A stretch of 64,000 nucleotides of DNA from the NCBI GenBank assembly GCA_030017615.1, contig JASEIG010000001.1:22518-86517 (forward strand), in the 5' to 3' direction. A model generated the notes under the pieces. That model was given only the letters and a program-made list of their open reading frames with translations, was not told the origin of the DNA and searched no databases. Shown piece after piece: positions 6,331-46,635 of the stretch. Every line of letters begins with the position of its first letter. Position 1 is the stretch's first letter. The DNA is from Patescibacteria group bacterium. Lineage in GTDB: Bacteria; Patescibacteriota; Minisyncoccia; UBA6257; UBA9933. The translations under genes were made by a program, and so were the position numbers.

Positions 6331-7197
6331 ATGCAATGCCCGATTTGTGATTCTAAAAATATTAAAAATGTAATATTGAAGGAATATACCGGATATAAAT
6401 GCCTGAATTGCGAGGTAGAATTTGTTTGGCCCCAGCCCACAAAAGAAGAATTAAGCAAAATTTATCAGGACGGCTATTACAAATCTTGGGGCGTGGAAGG
6501 AAATAAAAATGATGAAGTGCGTCTGATGAAAATTGCAACATCAAAGAAATATTTGAAAGCGGTTAAAAAATACAAAGAGAAAGGAAAATTATTGGATATT
6601 GGGTGCGCTTTCGGTTATTTACTTGAAGCAGCCGAAGAATCGGGATTTGACATTTATGGAGTTGAACTTTCCCGGTTTAGCAGCGATTTCGCTCAAAAAA
6701 AATTTGTATCCAAAATATTCAACGGCGAATTAAAGGAAGCAAAATTTCCTGAAAATAATTTTGATGTAATTGTAATGTCCGATTTATTGGAGCATATTCC
6801 AAAACCGGTTGAATTTTTAATTGAGGTAAAAAGAATAATAAAAAAAGACGGCGTGATTGTCATAATTACGCCTGATACGGACAGTTTTTCCAGAAAAATT
6901 TTAAGGCCGGATAACTGGTTTCATTACAAATTAGAGCACTTATTTTATTATAATAAGAAATCTTTGAGTAATTTATTGAATAAATTTGATTTTTCATTAT
7001 TGAATAAAAAACCGGCGGTAAAGGCGATTAGCTTGTTGTATTTGAAAAATCAACTTAATATTTTTCGCAATCATATTTTTACGCCGGTTATAAATTTTAT
7101 TTTTTTCTTAAGTCCGGAGTTTATAAAAAAAAAATATCTTTACATTTCAGGAGGGGAAATGTTTGCTATTTTTAAAAAAACTCACGATTGTTATTAA
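6331..7197 (+). CDS. Class I SAM-dependent methyltransferase with N-terminal zinc ribbon
   Basis: CPICDS...CLNCE zinc ribbon. Motif I LLDIGCAFGYLLE. DVIVMSDLLEH motif. Same architecture as the first gene in the window. Confidence 0.6.
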   Translation: MQCPICDSKNIKNVILKEYTGYKCLNCEVEFVWPQPTKEELSKIYQDGYYKSWGVEGNKNDEVRLMKIATSKKYLKAVKKYKEKGKLLDIGCAFGYLLEAAEESGFDIYGVELSRFSSDFAQKKFVSKIFNGELKEAKFPENNFDVIVMSDLLEHIPKPVEFLIEVKRIIKKDGVIVIITPDTDSFSRKILRPDNWFHYKLEHLFYYNKKSLSNLLNKFDFSLLNKKPAVKAISLLYLKNQLNIFRNHIFTPVINFIFFLSPEFIKKKYLYISGGEMFAIFKKTHDCY

Positions 7198-17049: not shown

Positions 17050-17170
17050 ATTTAATGAATATTACATTAATAATAATTAAAACAATTTTAATTAACCCTA
17101 ATTAAATAGTCAATTAATTTTGATGTTTGAGTTATTGCGTTTATTGTCGGAATAAGCGTAAAATAAATAG

Positions 17171-18370
17171 ATGAAAATTCTTCATATTGTTCCGACTTAT
17201 TATCCGGCTGTGCGCTATGGCGGGCCTATAAAGAGCGAATATGAATTGAATAAATGGTTAGTTAAAAAAGGGGCTGATGTGACCGTTTACACCACAAATC
17301 TTGACGGGAAAGGGGTTTTGGACGTTTCATTGGGAAAAGAGGTGATTATTGATGGCGTTAAAGTTTATTATTTCCCAATAACTTTTAGATCGTGGCAGTA
17401 TTCTTGGCAACTTCATCGCGCTTTGGCAAAAAATGTCCAAAATTTTGATTTGATTCGCATCACGTCTGTTTTTTTAGCAGTTTCCACTTTAGGAGCTTAT
17501 TATGCTAAAAAATTTAAAAAACCGTATGTTATTTCACCGCGCGGGAGTTTAATGAAAGAGCCACTTATCAGAAAAAGCTCTCTTAAAAAGAAAATTTATC
17601 TTAATTTGGTTGAAAAAAGAAATTTAAAAGACGCAATAATCAATTTTACGACTGAGATGGAAAAAAAGGAGTATTTGGATTTAAATTTTCCCCTAAAAAA
17701 TTCAATTATAACTCCGAATGGCATTGATGTTAATGAATTCAGTAAAAAAGTTCCACAAGGATTTTTTAGAAATAAATTCAAAATTTCAAATGACAAAAAA
17801 ATAATTCTATCTTTGGGACGGTTAAATTGGAAAAAAGGTTTTGACACTTTTATTCCGGCTTTTGCTAAAATAATTAAAAAAGAACCGAAAGCGGTTTTGG
17901 TTATTGCTGGGGGAGATGATGAGGGATACGGACAAAAAATCAAATCTCAAATCTCAAATCTCAAAATTGAGGATAAAACTATCTTTACGGGAATGCTAGC
18001 TGGTGATGATAAAATTGCGGTTTATCAGGACAGTAATATTTTTGTTTTACCGTCGTATTCGGAAAATTTTGGCAATGTTGTTTTGGAGGCGGCATATTTT
18101 GGCTTACCGGTTGTTGTCACTAAAGGAGTTGCTGTCGGTTTGGAATTTGAAAAAGCCGGTGCTGGAATTGCTGTTGAAAAAAATGTCCAAGAATTGGCCG
18201 AAGCGATTTTAAAGATTTTAAAAAATTCGGGATTAGGCAAAAAGATGGGCATAGTTGGGAAAAAATTTGTTGAAACTGAATTTTCTTGGTTGAAAATAAC
18301 GGAGAATTTTATAAAAAAGTATAGTGATTTATTGATAAATAAACAAATTAATGAAACCAATTTATCTTGA
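17171..18370 (+). CDS. Glycosyltransferase family 4
   Basis: ILHIVPTYYPAVRYGGP N-terminus and the ENFGNVVLEAAYFGLPVVVT EX7E motif. Contains the in-frame heptanucleotide repeat tract. Confidence 0.75.
   Translation: MKILHIVPTYYPAVRYGGPIKSEYELNKWLVKKGADVTVYTTNLDGKGVLDVSLGKEVIIDGVKVYYFPITFRSWQYSWQLHRALAKNVQNFDLIRITSVFLAVSTLGAYYAKKFKKPYVISPRGSLMKEPLIRKSSLKKKIYLNLVEKRNLKDAIINFTTEMEKKEYLDLNFPLKNSIITPNGIDVNEFSKKVPQGFFRNKFKISNDKKIILSLGRLNWKKGFDTFIPAFAKIIKKEPKAVLVIAGGDDEGYGQKIKSQISNLKIEDKTIFTGMLAGDDKIAVYQDSNIFVLPSYSENFGNVVLEAAYFGLPVVVTKGVAVGLEFEKAGAGIAVEKNVQELAEAILKILKNSGLGKKMGIVGKKFVETEFSWLKITENFIKKYSDLLINKQINETNLS
17938..17965 (+). repeat. Heptanucleotide tandem repeat (AAATCTC)x3 plus partial units, in frame inside the GT4 CDS (encodes KSQISNLK)
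   Basis: aaatc-aaatctc-aaatctc-aaatctc-aaaa read directly. An identical unit is repeated x4 at 36456-36483 in the carbamoyltransferase gene. Confidence 0.8.
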
Positions 18371-35315: not shown

Positions 35316-37061
35316 ATGTATATTTTAGGGATTAATGCTTATCATGGCGATTCATCAGCTTGTTTGATTAAGGATGGAAAACTTGTTGTCGCGCTAGAGG
35401 AAGAAAGAATTAGGAGAATAAAACATTGGGCGGGTTTACCAATAAAAGCAACCCAATTTTGCCTGGATTTTGCTGGCATCAAATTTGGCGATGTTGATTA
35501 CATCGCCGTTTCCCGTGACCCAAAGGCGCATTTATTAAACAAAATTATTTTTACACTTTTAAGACTGCCGAAAATAACTTCGGTCATTGACCGCCTTAAT
35601 AATCGCAGGAAAATCAGGGGATTTTACAAAGAATTGGCAGCGGCTTTCAACGCCAACGGGCAAAAGCTTAAGAATAAAATATATAACATTGAACATCATC
35701 GCTCTCATTTGGCGAGCGCTTTTTTTGTTTCCCCGTATGAGCGGGCCGCAGTTTTGTCAATTGACGGAATGGGTGATTTTATTTCAACTATGTGGGGAAT
35801 TGGCAAAGGCAATAAAATAAAGGTTTTTGGTCAGGTCAAATATCCGCATTCGCTCGGTTTTCTTTACACGGCAATTACCCAATACTTGGGTTTTTGGAAA
35901 TACGGCGACGAATATAAAGTAATGGGACTTTCGGCTTTCGGCAAGCCGATTTATCTTGAAAATATGAGAAAAATGATAAAATTTAAGCATAATGGCGGGT
36001 TTAAACTAACCCTTGATTATTTTATCCATCAAAAAAAAGGAGTAAAAATGGCTTGGCAAGGAGGAGAGCCAATACTTGGCAAATTATACTCCGATAAATT
36101 AATTGAATTGCTTGGCCCGGCAAGGGGAAAAGAAGAGTCATTGACGCATCGGCACGAAAATATCGCCGCTTCAGTTCAGGCGCTTTATGAGGAGGTGTTT
36201 TTTTATATTTTAGATAATCTTTATGAAAAGACCGGTTGTGATAATCTGTGTTTTGCAGGCGGCACTGCCCAAAATAGCTTAGCGAACGGGAAAATTTTCA
36301 GAAATTCCAAGTTTAAAGATATCTATATTCCGCCTGCCGGTTCTGACGCAGGTACCGCGGTTGGCGCGGCTTATTATCTTTACAATCAGATTCTGTATAA
36401 TCCGCGCGAATTTGTGATGAGTTCGTCGTTTTGGGGGCCGGAATATTCCGAAGAAAATCTCAAATCTCAAATCTCAAATCTCAAAAACAGGGGCAATTTT
36501 TTGATTGAACATCTTGATGACAAAAAATTAATTGAAAAAGCGGCCAAGTTTTTGGCGGACAGCAAGGTGGTCGGCTGGTTTCAGGGCAGAACCGAATGGG
36601 GGCCCAGGGCTTTGGGCAACAGAAGCATATTGGCAAATCCTTGCGATCCCAAGATAAAGGATATTTTAAATCTTAAAATCAAAAAAAGAGAATCGTTCAG
36701 GCCGTTCGCTCCGGCGATTTTAGAAGAGGAAGTTTTAAATTATTTTACGGAAAATAAGCCAGTGCCTTTTATGGAAAAGGTTTTTTCAATCAAGCCGGAA
36801 AAAAGGAAAATAATTCCAGCCGTCGTTCATGCGGACGGAACAGGAAGGTTACAGACTGTAAGTCGTGAAAATAATCCCTTATATTACGATTTAATAAAAG
36901 AATTCGGGCGCTTGACCGGTGTTCCGATTTTAATAAACACTTCTTTTAACGAAAATGAACCAATAGTTAATAAACCGGAGGAAGCGATAAATTGTTTTTT
37001 GAGAACTGATATGGATGTTTTGGTTTTGGGAAATTATATAGTGCTACGAAATACAAAATGA
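35316..37061 (+). CDS. Carbamoyltransferase (NodU/CmcH family)
   Basis: MYILGINAYHGDSSACLIKDGKLVVALEEERIRRIKHWAG N-terminus and the C-terminal VVGWFQGRTEWGPRALGNRSIL motif. Contains the (AAATCTC)4 tract. Confidence 0.8.
   Translation: MYILGINAYHGDSSACLIKDGKLVVALEEERIRRIKHWAGLPIKATQFCLDFAGIKFGDVDYIAVSRDPKAHLLNKIIFTLLRLPKITSVIDRLNNRRKIRGFYKELAAAFNANGQKLKNKIYNIEHHRSHLASAFFVSPYERAAVLSIDGMGDFISTMWGIGKGNKIKVFGQVKYPHSLGFLYTAITQYLGFWKYGDEYKVMGLSAFGKPIYLENMRKMIKFKHNGGFKLTLDYFIHQKKGVKMAWQGGEPILGKLYSDKLIELLGPARGKEESLTHRHENIAASVQALYEEVFFYILDNLYEKTGCDNLCFAGGTAQNSLANGKIFRNSKFKDIYIPPAGSDAGTAVGAAYYLYNQILYNPREFVMSSSFWGPEYSEENLKSQISNLKNRGNFLIEHLDDKKLIEKAAKFLADSKVVGWFQGRTEWGPRALGNRSILANPCDPKIKDILNLKIKKRESFRPFAPAILEEEVLNYFTENKPVPFMEKVFSIKPEKRKIIPAVVHADGTGRLQTVSRENNPLYYDLIKEFGRLTGVPILINTSFNENEPIVNKPEEAINCFLRTDMDVLVLGNYIVLRNTK
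36456..36483 (+). repeat. Heptanucleotide tandem repeat (AAATCTC)x4, in frame inside the carbamoyltransferase CDS (encodes LKSQISNLK)
   Basis: aaatctcaaatctcaaatctcaaatctc read directly. Same unit as at 17938-17965. Confidence 0.8.
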
Positions 37062-44989: not shown

Positions 44990-46635
44990 AAATAAATAAA
45001 TTAAAATTTTTTACGGTTTCTATTACTCTATTCTTTTTTGTGTTCTCATTTTCTTTTGCGCTGGCTTACGAGCCTATTCCCACTCATCGCGATTTAACGA
45101 AAAAAATAATAGAAGTTTATAACAAGTATTATGAACCAAAAATTTCCGAACAGGAAGCTCAGTGGATAATGGACGGGACTGTAAAAGAAGACATAATTCC
45201 AAGGTGGATTAATCATTTCTACGACCCTATTTATAATCAAGGATGGACTGGAGAAAAAGAAGGAGATATGTCTGCGGAAACGGTGCAAAAATTATCCAAA
45301 ATTTTTATTTCCACAAGCAACGCGCTTTCTTCGGTAAATTGGCTGCATAATCAGGATGAGCAGTGGAAATACGGACTTTATGAAGGAAATCAAACTTATG
45401 ACAGAGCTTTAAAAGCTTTTGGATGGGCGGAAAATATTAAAAATAAAAATTTCACAAGCAACGCGCCTTCTTGGGTAAGTTATGTATCCGCTTATAAAGC
45501 TTTAGGACATACGCTTCATTTATTGGAAGATTTAGGAGTGCCGGCGCACACAAGAGGAGATACTCACGCGGATGTAGTCGGGTCAAATGATAACGGCGAT
45601 CCTTATGAAACGTGGGTTGCGGAAGGGAATAACGGAGATTTAAATTTTTTAAATAATTTGAATTTACAGAACAATTCATATTGTTCAAAAATTAATGAAT
45701 GTTTTATAAATTTGGCGAAATATTCAAATGAGAATTTTTATAGCAAGGATACAATTGATGATCTGAAATATAGTATTTTAAAATTTAAATATCAAAAATT
45801 AGAAAATAATAAAATTTTTCTTTATAGAGAAGATAATTTTGGAAATAATTATATTTTTAAAGTTTATGATAATGAAATTAATAAAAATGTAATTAGTAAT
45901 CCTCAAGTTCACAAATCATACTGGCAACTTCTTTCAAAACAAATTGTGTTGTCAGGTGTTCAAGTAATAAAGCAATTTCGTGAAGATGCGAGAGATAGCA
46001 CTGAAAATTTGGCTTTAAACCCTCCGTCAAGTTCGTTTAGTTGTGATGGTGTTTTATGCAAAGGATTTAATCTTTCATTTCTTAGTTTATTTGATAAAGC
46101 TGTGGGCTCGGTAAAATCTGTTTGGGGACAATTAGCGAATACAGCTAACAATCTCATATCCGCCGTTAAGGGGGTTTTTGCTTCAAATTATAATGATGGC
46201 TTTAAGCAGATTGGGGAGATTAATTTGGAAACGCAAACAACGAAAGATGCGTCAAAAGAAGCGAATGGAATTTCTACGCAAGCCGACGACAATAAAAAAT
46301 CCGACGGCAATTCCAAAAATGACGACAGAGAAATCAGTAAATTAAAAAAAGAAATCACGTCTTTAAAAAAGGAAATCAGCGCGCTGAAAAATGGAAAAAA
46401 TCAGAAAGAAGAACCCGCGTCTGAAGAAAATTCCCTCGCTTCATCATCAAATAAGCCGGATAAAAATAAAAAAGAAAGTAATTCTAAAAATAAAAACAAT
46501 GAAATTGATAAAAATGAAATAAAACATCCATGTTTTTTTAATACTGGCGGCAATCCTTCGCATTCGGGAATGATTATAAATGAAATAGCGTGGATGGGAC
46601 CATCAACAGCGCCAGCGACGAATGGATGGAGCTGA
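44986..46635 (+). CDS. N-terminal part of a giant secreted protein: signal peptide, Zn-hydrolase (P1 nuclease/phospholipase C-like HxxxDxxxxxH) region, coiled coil, start of lamin-tail domain; truncated by a frameshift near 46605
   Basis: Signal peptide FTVSITLFFFVFSFSFALA. GHTLHLLEDLGVPAHTRGDTH fits H-x3-D-x5-H zinc ligands. KLKKEITSLKKEISALK coiled coil. C-terminal IINEIAWMG is the first half of an LTD motif. Confidence 0.5.
   Translation: MKINKLKFFTVSITLFFFVFSFSFALAYEPIPTHRDLTKKIIEVYNKYYEPKISEQEAQWIMDGTVKEDIIPRWINHFYDPIYNQGWTGEKEGDMSAETVQKLSKIFISTSNALSSVNWLHNQDEQWKYGLYEGNQTYDRALKAFGWAENIKNKNFTSNAPSWVSYVSAYKALGHTLHLLEDLGVPAHTRGDTHADVVGSNDNGDPYETWVAEGNNGDLNFLNNLNLQNNSYCSKINECFINLAKYSNENFYSKDTIDDLKYSILKFKYQKLENNKIFLYREDNFGNNYIFKVYDNEINKNVISNPQVHKSYWQLLSKQIVLSGVQVIKQFREDARDSTENLALNPPSSSFSCDGVLCKGFNLSFLSLFDKAVGSVKSVWGQLANTANNLISAVKGVFASNYNDGFKQIGEINLETQTTKDASKEANGISTQADDNKKSDGNSKNDDREISKLKKEITSLKKEISALKNGKNQKEEPASEENSLASSSNKPDKNKKESNSKNKNNEIDKNEIKHPCFFNTGGNPSHSGMIINEIAWMGPSTAPATNGWS

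What the first reader, a model, noticed from the sequence alone, without database searches (positions are those of the whole stretch)
17938..17965. Identical in-frame heptanucleotide repeat (AAATCTC)n in two unrelated glycan genes: candidate phase-variation tracts
The GT4 gene carries (AAATCTC)x3 with partial flanks at 17938-17965, and the carbamoyltransferase carries (AAATCTC)x4 at 36456-36483. Both are in frame and encode the same octapeptide KSQISNLK in proteins with no other similarity. A 7-nt unit is not a multiple of 3, so gain or loss of one unit by slipped-strand mispairing would frameshift the gene. This is the classic contingency-locus mechanism for switching surface glycan structures. 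Identical nucleotide tracts in two genes argue for recent spread or expansion of the repeat rather than chance.
Basis: seen in the sequence. Interest (0 to 1): 0.6.

Follow-up and report, generated by a model that had tools for sequence, protein, structure and literature searches.

The report
Fixed in-frame 7-base repeats in genes
Two unrelated sugar-coat genes of a tiny uncultured bacterium each hold the same short 7-base DNA stutter, an old fixed-length feature also found in essential genes of related bacteria, so it is probably a tolerated by-product of DNA copying slips rather than an on/off switch.

Summary
(AAATCTC)x3.7 sits at 17940-17965 in a GT4 glycosyltransferase and (AAATCTC)x4.4 at 36455-36485 in a carbamoyltransferase. 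Both are in frame, both encode KSQISNLK, and the proteins share nothing else.

It is a DNA-level repeat, not a conserved peptide: the chance of these exact codons given the peptide is about 2e-6.

It is not a recent expansion. Orthologs at 43-78% identity carry 7-nt-periodic arrays at the same site and register, with the same or related units (AAATTAC, AATTACY, AAAATTG, AAATTTC, AAGTTGC). Length is fixed at about 4 units.

In 828 kb of related loci, period 7 is almost the only tandem-repeat period. All arrays are in frame.

The same array occurs in LeuRS, CysRS, Fmt and an M16 peptidase of other Patescibacteria.

I saw no length variant or frameshifted allele among about 90 orthologs and about 45 close strain variants.

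Both window tracts encode a short alpha-helix.

Best reading: a position-fixed coding heptanucleotide microsatellite. It is generated and homogenised by 7-nt slippage, tolerated because it encodes a helix, and shared between genes of one genome.

Frameshift switching is mechanically possible but unsupported. Read-level data would decide.

The parts
17940..17965 (+). Perfect heptanucleotide array, 3.7 units of AAATCTC (TRF phase TCAAATC). With 2 mismatches it extends to 17935-17968 (4.9 units). It encodes K258-K265 (KSQISNLK) of the GT4.
   Evidence: AlphaFold model: residues 254-263 form the helix between strands 241-246 and 270-272.
17171..18370 (+). Host gene 1: GT4-family glycosyltransferase, 399 aa, intact. 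The predicted E-x7-E catalytic motif (SENFGNVVLEA, about aa 297-307) lies downstream of the tract.
   Evidence: (100% identical to an NCBI Patescibacteria MAG protein).
36455..36485 (+). Perfect heptanucleotide array, 4.4 units of AAATCTC. It encodes N381-K390 (NLKSQISNLK) of the carbamoyltransferase.
   Evidence: AlphaFold model: helix 379-390 followed by strand 395-399. The array is identical in the L204 ortholog.
35316..37061 (+). Host gene 2: NodU/CmcH-type carbamoyltransferase, 581 aa, intact. The tract lies between Carbam_trans_N (3-352) and Carbam_trans_C (410-577).

Best explanation
The two tracts are position-fixed, in-frame heptanucleotide microsatellites, not a peptide motif and not a working on/off switch.

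Shown: each tract is a short array of about 4 units of AAATCTC that encodes one alpha-helix. In the GT4 this is the helix of a beta-alpha-beta unit in the C-terminal Rossmann domain. In the carbamoyltransferase it is the first helix after the N-terminal domain.

Shown: the orthologous site in many Patescibacteria genomes carries a 7-nt-periodic array in the same codon register. The unit is either the same or a related one. Within a gene the array is internally uniform, but it differs between lineages, which is concerted evolution. Total length is constant and the array is always in frame.

Shown: 7 is almost the only tandem-repeat period in these loci. Equivalent arrays occur in a third glycan gene (a GT2) and in essential housekeeping genes.

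Inferred mechanism: a lineage-wide bias towards 7-nt slipped-strand misalignment creates and keeps homogenising arrays in AT-rich helix-coding stretches. This is the bias already proposed to explain heptamer over-representation in bacteria. The homogenising likely works by transient out-of-register pairing that copies a neighbouring unit without changing length.

Inferred: purifying selection on the protein fixes the length and frame and allows only units with an xAAT core, which encodes the nearly invariant Ile and the commonly retained Asn at this site. A 7-nt repeat is tolerable because all three of its frames spell the same cyclic heptapeptide (KSQISNL). That peptide has hydrophobic residues spaced 3 and 4 apart and fits an amphipathic helix.

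Inferred: the same unit in several genes of one genome arises by ectopic copying between arrays.

A one-unit slip would knock out either enzyme. At about 4 units such events should be rare, and they leave no trace in the comparative data.
For: DNA-level, not peptide-level: P(exact codons | peptide) = 2e-6. Perfect 31-nt arrays are identical between orthologs that share only 54-64% of residues and only 55-65% of codons at identical residues.

Site-specific 7-periodicity: among 77 distinct GT4 orthologs, 26% have >=75% lag-7 matches at aa 258. The figure is <=1% at every other position and for every other lag from 3 to 12.

Different units in the same register at that column: AAATCTC, AAATTTC, AATTACY, AAATTAC, AAAATTG, AAATTRG, AAGTTGC. 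The carbamoyltransferase site shows AAATCTC, AAAAATC, AAATATC and AAAATCT.

Period specificity in 828 kb: for perfect tracts, period 7 = 13, periods 8/14/15 = 1/1/2, all others 0, triplet shuffles 0. For 4-unit arrays with <=2 mismatches, period 7 = 32 against 0-3 for periods 5, 6 and 8-12.

Always in frame: all 13 perfect arrays lie in intact ORFs, including 7 that played no part in choosing the loci.

Not restricted to glycan genes: LeuRS, CysRS, Fmt, M16 peptidase and Pth.

Fixed length and no OFF alleles.

Helix location.

No nucleic-acid structure in the arrays and no Rfam family.

Sharing within a genome: a second-gene AAATCTC array occurs in 3 of 7 loci with an AAATCTC GT4 array, against <=1 of 70 without one (Fisher p=0.002). 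In L209 the GT4 and the GT2 share both the array and the same GC-rich insert.

Literature: heptameric SSRs are over-represented in many bacteria, and a polymerase-slippage cause has been proposed (PMC4692102).
Against: A mutational bias alone does not explain why the arrays stay perfect for so long at the same site. Homogenisation without length change is inferred, not shown.

Single-unit slippage is a frameshift, so how a 4-unit in-frame array arises in an essential gene is unexplained.

The recurrence of exactly AAATCTC x4.4 in three gene families, and of array-plus-hairpin composites, could instead point to a copied cassette or small mobile element.

My ortholog sets came from protein-based searches that favour intact genes. 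Consensus assemblies hide minority alleles, so rare OFF variants could have been missed.

The NJ tree used to judge polyphyly of array types is star-like and weak.
Confidence: 0.55

Rival explanations
1. Low-rate contingency loci. The arrays are kept in glycan genes because occasional one-unit slippage switches the GT4 or the carbamoyltransferase off and back on, varying the surface glycan under phage or host pressure.
For: The unit is not a multiple of 3, and the other frames stop within 1-11 codons. The host genes belong to a surface-glycan cluster, which is the typical target class. Unit turnover at constant length is what repeated loss and regain of units would produce. An assembly gap removes exactly the tract-plus-insert region in one carbamoyltransferase allele (P0245/P0243), which could reflect population heterogeneity. 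The permissive H. influenzae survey counts >=3 heptamer units as candidates.
Against: No out-of-frame or length-variant allele appears in about 90 orthologs or about 45 close variants. The truncated cluster members break at homopolymers elsewhere. All 7 bystander arrays are in frame, where (1/3)^7 = 5e-4 would be expected if frame were free. The 3.7-4.4 units fall below the >=5 cut-off and below proven heptanucleotide switches of 13-38 copies. Identical arrays occur in LeuRS, CysRS and Fmt, where OFF would be lethal.
Confidence: 0.2
2. Copied cassette or miniature element. A unit of about 30 nt made of AAATCTC repeats, often carrying a GC-rich hairpin, is pasted in frame into helix or loop-coding sites of many genes. 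The pasting would be by ectopic gene conversion or by a dedicated mobile process, in the manner of Rickettsia palindromic elements. Pure arrays would be hairpin-less copies.
For: The same 31-nt array recurs in GT4, carbamoyltransferase and GT2, and arrays of similar length (3.1-4.9 units) occur in LeuRS, CysRS and the M16 peptidase. GC-rich inserts lie inside or next to the arrays in L137, L121, L025 and L209. In L209 the same array and the same insert occur in two genes. Arrays co-occur within genomes (p=0.002). The window's YchF has a GC-rich hairpin flanked by AAAATTTCT and AAAATCTCT. The hairpin insert varies in length between close strains.
Against: At the GT4 site the array is not an insertion. 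Orthologs with and without arrays have the same length (19 aa). Other units at the same site argue for in-place evolution. I saw no terminal inverted repeats, no clear target duplications and no associated transposase. The arrays themselves have no secondary structure. The scan that found the other hosts was seeded with AAATCTC, so its apparent predominance is biased.
Confidence: 0.15
3. A functional nucleic-acid signal embedded in coding sequence. For example, a binding site for a DNA- or RNA-binding protein, or a recombination anchor for in-frame module exchange between glycan gene clusters.
For: There is perfect conservation of 31 nt, including rare codons, across divergent orthologs. The arrays lie at domain or sub-domain boundaries.
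Against: Single or paired AAATCTC units are not enriched and show no strand bias in the window. Many orthologs carry different units at the site. There is no structure and no Rfam match. The hosts include unrelated housekeeping genes.
Confidence: 0.05
4. A conserved peptide motif (KSQISNLK) selected at the protein level in both enzymes, with the repeat as an incidental encoding.
For: The peptide recurs at the same position in orthologs. L123 keeps a near-identical peptide with three synonymous changes. Ile is nearly invariant at the site and Asn is common there.
Against: The exact repeat encoding has probability about 2e-6 given the peptide, yet it recurs in many independent genes. The closest orthologs have quite different peptides at the site, each again encoded by a 7-nt repeat. 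The host proteins and folds are unrelated.
Confidence: 0.03

Closest known systems
SSR-driven phase-variable (contingency) genes of Haemophilus, Neisseria and Campylobacter. Examples include intragenic tetranucleotide tracts in LPS glycosyltransferases, and the (AATTTTG)14 tract with a frameshift inside hmw1a of H. influenzae PittAA (PMC2651432).
   Same: A tandem repeat whose unit is not a multiple of 3 lies inside a surface-glycan biosynthesis ORF. One-unit slippage would truncate the product.
   Different: Copy number is only 3.7-4.4, against roughly 5 to 38. Length is invariant across strains and orthologs, and no OFF allele was seen. The arrays lie mid-gene in a structural helix. The same arrays occur in essential genes.
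Over-represented heptameric simple sequence repeats of bacteria (Mrazek et al. 2007, as cited in PMC4692102). Examples are cyanobacterial STRR repeats, Xanthomonas/Nostoc GGGAATC repeats and the Beggiatoaceae TAACTGA direct repeats (PMC4679880).
   Same: Period 7 is strongly preferred over every other period. The (AAATCTC)n unit itself also occurs in Microcoleus, Planctomycetota, Verrucomicrobiota and Bacteroidota.
   Different: Those repeats are mostly intergenic, variable in length and often long. Here the arrays are coding, in frame, fixed at about 4 units, conserved in position across deeply diverged orthologs, and they turn over their unit in concert.
Rickettsia palindromic elements: selfish repeats inserted in frame into unrelated protein-coding genes (from my own knowledge; not checked in the library).
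   Same: Short repeated DNA is tolerated in frame at permissive sites of unrelated genes, including essential ones. This applies especially to the GC-rich hairpins and the roughly 31-nt RTSDV palindrome seen at the same sites.
   Different: The heptamer arrays are direct repeats, not palindromes, at about 30 nt rather than 100-150 nt. At the GT4 site they replace the native helix codons without adding length.

Membership tests
SSR-mediated phase-variable (contingency) locus | Tandem repeat with a unit not divisible by 3, located in an ORF or promoter | tested here: met
   7-nt unit inside both ORFs.
SSR-mediated phase-variable (contingency) locus | Gain or loss of one unit abolishes the product | tested here: met
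   Alternative frames stop 1 and 11 codons after the GT4 tract and 6 and 7 codons after the carbamoyltransferase tract. The C-terminal halves would be lost.
SSR-mediated phase-variable (contingency) locus | Repeat number in the hypermutable range | tested here: not met
   3.7 and 4.4 units. PhasomeIt uses >=5 for long units. Documented heptanucleotide switches have 13-38 units. No array in 828 kb of related loci exceeds 4.9 perfect units.
SSR-mediated phase-variable (contingency) locus | Repeat-number polymorphism, including out-of-frame alleles, among strains or orthologs | tested here: not met
   0 of 80 GT4 loci are split at the tract. Region length is constant. About 45 full-length members of nine >=90%-identity clusters show only point changes. 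Carbamoyltransferase fragments break elsewhere or at an assembly gap. The searches favour intact genes.
SSR-mediated phase-variable (contingency) locus | Length heterogeneity within a population (reads or colonies) | not testable with these tools
   No read data were available.
Over-represented bacterial heptameric SSRs | Period 7 in excess over neighbouring periods | tested here: met
   13 of 17 perfect tracts have period 7, and there are 32 imperfect period-7 arrays against 0-3 for periods 5, 6 and 8-12.
Over-represented bacterial heptameric SSRs | Mostly intergenic, with length variable between relatives | tested here: not met
   All 13 perfect arrays are coding and in frame. Length is fixed between relatives.
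Conserved short peptide motif | Peptide conserved while synonymous sites vary freely | tested here: not met
   The exact repeat codons recur. P = 2e-6 given the peptide. Only L123 and L122 show partial decay.
In-frame selfish palindromic element (RPE-like) | Palindromic or hairpin-forming repeat dispersed in frame in unrelated genes | tested here: not met
   The arrays have no significant fold (z = -1.9 and +0.7). The feature is met by the accompanying GC-rich inserts and the RTSDV palindrome (z = -2.7 and -6.7), not by the tracts themselves.
GT4 glycosyltransferase / NodU-CmcH carbamoyltransferase (host genes) | Pfam domain architecture above the gathering score | tested here: met
   Glycos_transf_1 at 132.9 bits and Glyco_transf_4 at 38.8 bits. 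Carbam_trans_N at 203 bits and Carbam_trans_C at 240 bits.

The most novel reading that the evidence does not exclude
Patescibacteria may have an active, sequence-copying process that writes and keeps homogenising short 7-nt arrays, and associated GC-rich hairpins, in frame into helix- or loop-coding segments of many genes and spreads them between genes of one genome. That would be a new class of intragenic mini-repeat. In dispensable surface-glycan genes such arrays might additionally serve as slow frameshift switches.
Probability: 0.2. Interest if true: 0.7.

Novelty: new variant of a known kind. Interest (0 to 1): 0.45.

Why it matters
A coding repeat with a non-triplet unit is usually read as a switch. 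This case shows that such a repeat can instead be an old, stable, fixed-length part of a protein helix, shared by essential and non-essential genes. That matters for automated 'phasome' predictions in uncultured, small-genome bacteria, which would flag these tracts as phase-variable.

If the pattern holds genome-wide, it gives a clean natural system for studying how 7-nt slippage, templated conversion and protein constraints shape coding sequence. The pattern is period-7 exclusivity, a conserved position with unit turnover, and sharing between genes. It may also expose a previously undescribed family of in-frame mini-repeats and hairpins in Patescibacteria.

If read data do show length heterogeneity, it would be, as far as my literature search shows, the first evidence for repeat-mediated phase variation of surface glycans in this radiation.

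Tried and rejected
Exact look-up of the two window proteins in the assembly index found nothing, so no sister strains of this genome could be compared.

The single genome-contig scan went on the bare (AAATCTC)3 pattern.

I looked for frameshifted GT4 alleles as split tblastn hits and found none.

I examined short members of >=90%-identity clusters as possible OFF alleles. They break at homopolymer runs in long contigs, or at an assembly gap, not at the heptamer tract.

Pairwise synonymous-codon comparison was too weak per pair because an alignment gap cut the tract window. I replaced it with the codon-usage likelihood.

A synthetic (KSQISNL)n query returned only 34-79 aa ORFs, apparently spurious calls over long arrays, so it gave no census of host families.

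The NJ tree of GT4 orthologs is star-like, so I treat polyphyly of array types as suggestive only.

Rejected explanations:
- Chance.
- An assembly artefact, because the same arrays appear in many independent assemblies.
- A dispersed uptake or binding motif.
- A structured RNA or DNA element.
- A conserved peptide.
Full report
**1. Observation**

The window reads ...GGACAAAAAATCAAATCTCAAATCTCAAATCTCAAAATTGAG... at 17930-17972. It reads ...GAAGAAAATCTCAAATCTCAAATCTCAAATCTCAAAAACAGG... at 36448-36492. Tandem Repeats Finder reports 17940-17965 (period 7, 3.7 copies, 100% matches) and 36455-36485 (period 7, 4.4 copies, 100% matches).

Two tandem units occur only at these two places. Five overlapping matches are seen against 0.11 expected, and no shuffle out of 100 reaches five.

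Both tracts lie in intact + strand ORFs. The first is 17171-18370, a GT4 glycosyltransferase. The second is 35316-37061, a carbamoyltransferase with Carbam_trans_N and Carbam_trans_C domains. Both are read in the same register as KSQISNLK. BLASTP finds no other similarity between the two proteins.

The window comes from a Patescibacteria MAG: both proteins have 100%-identical NCBI entries on one 87.2-kb contig.

**2. Not a conserved peptide**

With the codon usage of 43 long ORFs of the window, the codons AAT CTC AAA TCT CAA ATC TCA AAT CTC AAA have probability 2e-6 given the peptide. CTC is 3.9% of Leu codons and ATC is 15% of Ile codons.

Yet the same 31 nt, (AAATCTC)x4.4, is found in several other genes:
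- GT4 orthologs L121, L167 and L208, and L209 with an added insert.
- The carbamoyltransferase ortholog L204.
- A GT2 gene in L167.

These orthologs share only 54-64% of residues. At identical residues they share only 55-65% of codons.

**3. Not recent: an old site-specific array that evolves in concert**

I aligned 120 GT4 homologs and fetched DNA for 83 orthologous loci. Between the conserved EGY and IFTG motifs the region is almost always 19 residues.

In roughly half of the orthologs the strongest DNA autocorrelation there is at lag 7. All are in the same codon register, but the units differ: AAATCTC, AAATTTC, AATTACY, AAATTAC, AAAATTG, AAATTRG, AAGTTGC and GCGAATG.

I profiled 77 distinct orthologs column by column. 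At residue 258, 26% have at least 75% lag-7 matches. No other position, and no other lag from 3 to 12, exceeds 1%.

Arrays are uniform within a gene and differ between lineages. That is the signature of continuing homogenisation. L122 shows two adjacent units sharing the same C>T change, and L123 shows a decaying array.

The Ile at this site is nearly invariant and the Asn two residues after it is common. Together they force an xAAT core on any viable unit. This may explain why a few units recur in several places on a weak, star-like tree.

The carbamoyltransferase site behaves the same way:
- Identical (AAATCTC)x4.4 in L204, at 78% protein identity.
- AAAAATC, AAATATC and AAAATCT units in L205, L206, L150 and L154.
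- No array in more distant homologs.

**4. A general habit of these genomes, specific to period 7**

I surveyed 828 kb (the window plus 87 Patescibacteria loci).
- Perfect tandem tracts with at least 14 consecutive lag matches: period 7 = 13, period 8 = 1, period 14 = 1, period 15 = 2, every other period from 4 to 13 = 0. Triplet-shuffled controls give none.
- Four-unit arrays with up to 2 mismatches: period 7 = 32, period 5 = 3, period 8 = 1, and periods 6 and 9-12 = 0.

The periods normally tolerated in coding DNA (6, 9, 12) are absent.

Additional arrays lie in a GT2 glycosyltransferase next to the GT4, at two variable linker sites: (AATTCCA)3, (GCACCCC)3.9, (GAAAAAG)4.9, (AACAACC)3.9 and (AAATCTC)4.7. 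Others lie in a second GT4-like gene and in peptidyl-tRNA hydrolase.

All 13 perfect arrays are in frame in intact ORFs. That includes seven that played no part in selecting the loci. No perfect array exceeds 4.9 units.

**5. The same array in essential genes**

The genome-collection scan for (AAATCTC)3 hit many phyla. There the arrays are often intergenic or at gene starts, and reach up to 20 copies.

The five Patescibacteria hits are all in frame inside long ORFs:
- A Saccharibacteria GT4, at the same structural site as in the window.
- Leucyl-tRNA synthetase.
- Cysteinyl-tRNA synthetase.
- Methionyl-tRNA formyltransferase.
- An M16 peptidase.

On/off switching of LeuRS or CysRS would be lethal. 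As a class, therefore, these arrays are not contingency loci.

**6. Tests of phase variation**

In favour: the unit is not a multiple of 3. The other two frames stop within 1-11 codons in the GT4 and 6-7 codons in the carbamoyltransferase, so a one-unit slip is a null allele. The genes belong to a surface-glycan cluster.

Against:
- No GT4 ortholog is split at the tract.
- Array length is constant across orthologs.
- About 45 full-length sequences in nine clusters at >=90% identity show only point substitutions in the array.
- Fragmentary members of the carbamoyltransferase cluster break at homopolymer runs elsewhere. In one case they flank an assembly gap that removes the tract region.
- Copy numbers of 3.7 and 4.4 are below the >=5 cut-off used for long units (PMC6321876). 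They are far below documented heptanucleotide switches of 13-38 copies (PMC2651432).

Caveats: protein-based retrieval favours intact genes, and consensus assemblies hide minority alleles.

**7. What the tracts encode**

AlphaFold models have mean pLDDT of 83.8 and 84.3. In the GT4, the tract is helix 254-263, between strands 241-246 and 270-272 of the C-terminal Rossmann domain. In the carbamoyltransferase, the tract is helix 379-390, just before strand 395-399.

Seven and three share no factor, so all three frames of a 7-nt repeat spell the same cyclic heptapeptide. For AAATCTC this is KSQISNL, with Ile and Leu spaced 3 and 4 residues apart. That is the pattern of an amphipathic helix.

As single strands the arrays have no significant structure. 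No Rfam family matches anywhere in the window. Isolated AAATCTC heptamers are not enriched.

**8. Sharing between genes, and the GC-rich inserts**

Excluding the window, a second gene with an AAATCTC array is present in 3 of 7 loci whose GT4 has that array. It is present in at most 1 of 70 loci without it (Fisher p=0.002).

GC-rich hairpin-forming inserts sit inside or next to AAATCTC arrays in four places: L137 (GT4), L121 (carbamoyltransferase), L025 (Fmt) and L209.

In L209 the GT4 and the GT2 carry both the array and the same insert (...GGCTCGCCTCGGGCGGC, read as PRLASGG). This argues for copying between sites. The insert in the carbamoyltransferase differs by 27 nt between close strains.

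A separate palindrome of about 31 nt, always read as [R/G]TSDV, occupies the same variable sites in other orthologs.

The window's own YchF gene has in-frame GC-rich hairpins. One is flanked by AAAATTTCT and AAAATCTCT.

These sites are therefore permissive hot spots that collect short repeats of two kinds.

**9. Interpretation**

The best-supported reading is a position-fixed coding heptanucleotide microsatellite.

A bias towards 7-nt misalignment creates and homogenises arrays in AT-rich helix-coding stretches. Such a bias has already been proposed for the known excess of heptameric repeats in bacteria (PMC4692102). Protein-level selection fixes frame and length and restricts the allowed units. 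Arrays are occasionally copied between genes of one genome.

The steps shown here are:
- The periodicity and its site specificity.
- The unit turnover.
- The fixed length and frame.
- The helix location.
- The range of host genes.
- The sharing within genomes.

The steps inferred are homogenisation without length change, the slippage bias as the cause, and ectopic conversion as the route of sharing.

Frameshift switching remains mechanically possible for the two glycan genes. At about 4 units it should be rare, and nothing in the comparative data supports it.

The main unexplained points are:
- How in-frame four-unit arrays arise in essential genes.
- Why they stay perfect for so long.
- What the associated hairpins are.

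**10. Novelty and score**

Intragenic non-triplet repeats and the heptamer excess are both known.

What appears undescribed is a fixed-length, position-conserved, concertedly evolving in-frame heptamer array, shared by glycan and housekeeping genes across Patescibacteria. My searches found no paper linking simple sequence repeats or phase variation with this radiation.

I rate it a new variant of a known kind, with interest 0.45. It would rise if reads show length heterogeneity or if a copying element is demonstrated.

Noticed in passing
L130:1305-1337, L132:6575/11803/11839, L134:5556, L149:6824/6863, L158:8172, L188:6812, L206:3296: A palindrome of about 31 nt, AATAT(T/A)(A/G)GGACRTC-N-GAYGTCC(A/C)AAATATT, occurs 14 times. 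It is always in frame and always read as [R/G]TSDV[Q/P]. It sits at the same variable sites of GT4, a GT4 paralog and GT2 that hold heptamer arrays in other orthologs. Peptides of the same type occur at the carbamoyltransferase site (P0177, P0197, P0143). It looks like an in-frame selfish palindromic element.
   Followed up: partly
L137:6787-6807; L121:8185-8241; L025 near 6811-6870; L209:4740-4760 and 6363-6392: GC-rich, hairpin-forming inserts of 21-57 nt lie inside or directly after AAATCTC arrays in four different genes. In L209 the same insert is present in two genes. In the carbamoyltransferase cluster the insert differs by 27 nt between close strains (P0154 versus P0242).
   Followed up: partly
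window 55430-55475 and 55676-55710 (YchF ORF 54962-56047): The housekeeping GTPase YchF carries two in-frame GC-rich hairpin inserts. GDSSSRAKLATGHS is absent from the solved Thermus homolog 2dby. The second insert (SAQGGSAPGG) is flanked by AAAATTTCT and AAAATCTCT, resembling the array-plus-hairpin composites seen in other genomes.
   Followed up: partly
L154:6567-6596 and L132:6575-6589: The GT4 family has a second hot spot at about residue 190. L154 has (TCTCAAG)x4.3 there, and L132 has the RTSDV palindrome at the same place.
   Followed up: no
L001-L120 (e.g. L086:5711-5854, 20.6 copies; L021, L054 about 10 copies; L007, L018, L019, L043, L118 within a few codons of an ORF start): (AAATCTC)n is widespread in Microcoleus, Planctomycetota, Verrucomicrobiota, Bacteroidota and Acidobacteriota. 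There it is often longer, intergenic or right at the 5' end of ORFs. That is the classic position for regulatory or phase-variable repeats, unlike the mid-gene arrays of Patescibacteria.
   Followed up: no
window 47022-47047: (GGC)x8.7 encodes a poly-Gly run (STGGGGGGGGGVS) inside an 843-aa ORF, in an otherwise 35% GC window.
   Followed up: no
L121:5518-6177 and L208:9732-9995: Toxin-antitoxin or abortive-infection genes (AbiEii in L121, ParE in L208) are wedged next to the GT4 inside the glycan clusters.
   Followed up: no
P0027, P0029, P0033, P0078, P0110; L204:5993-8020: In several genomes the GT4 is fused to the neighbouring GT2 into one protein of 656-682 aa. In L204 the GT2 part carries (AACAACC)x3.9.
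   Followed up: no
P0247, P0248, P0281, P0282, P0292, P0293 (contigs of 118,617 and 585,693 nt): Several glycan genes on two very long contigs are truncated at A/T homopolymer runs. This is probably long-read homopolymer error rather than biology, but poly-A slippage was not excluded.
   Followed up: no
window 17058-17106, 46329-46397, 46459-46519, 49111-49140: Tandem Repeats Finder lists other short tandem repeats: period 25 just upstream of the GT4 start, periods 21 and 24 near 46.4 kb, and an exact 15-nt duplication at 49.1 kb. None was examined.
   Followed up: no
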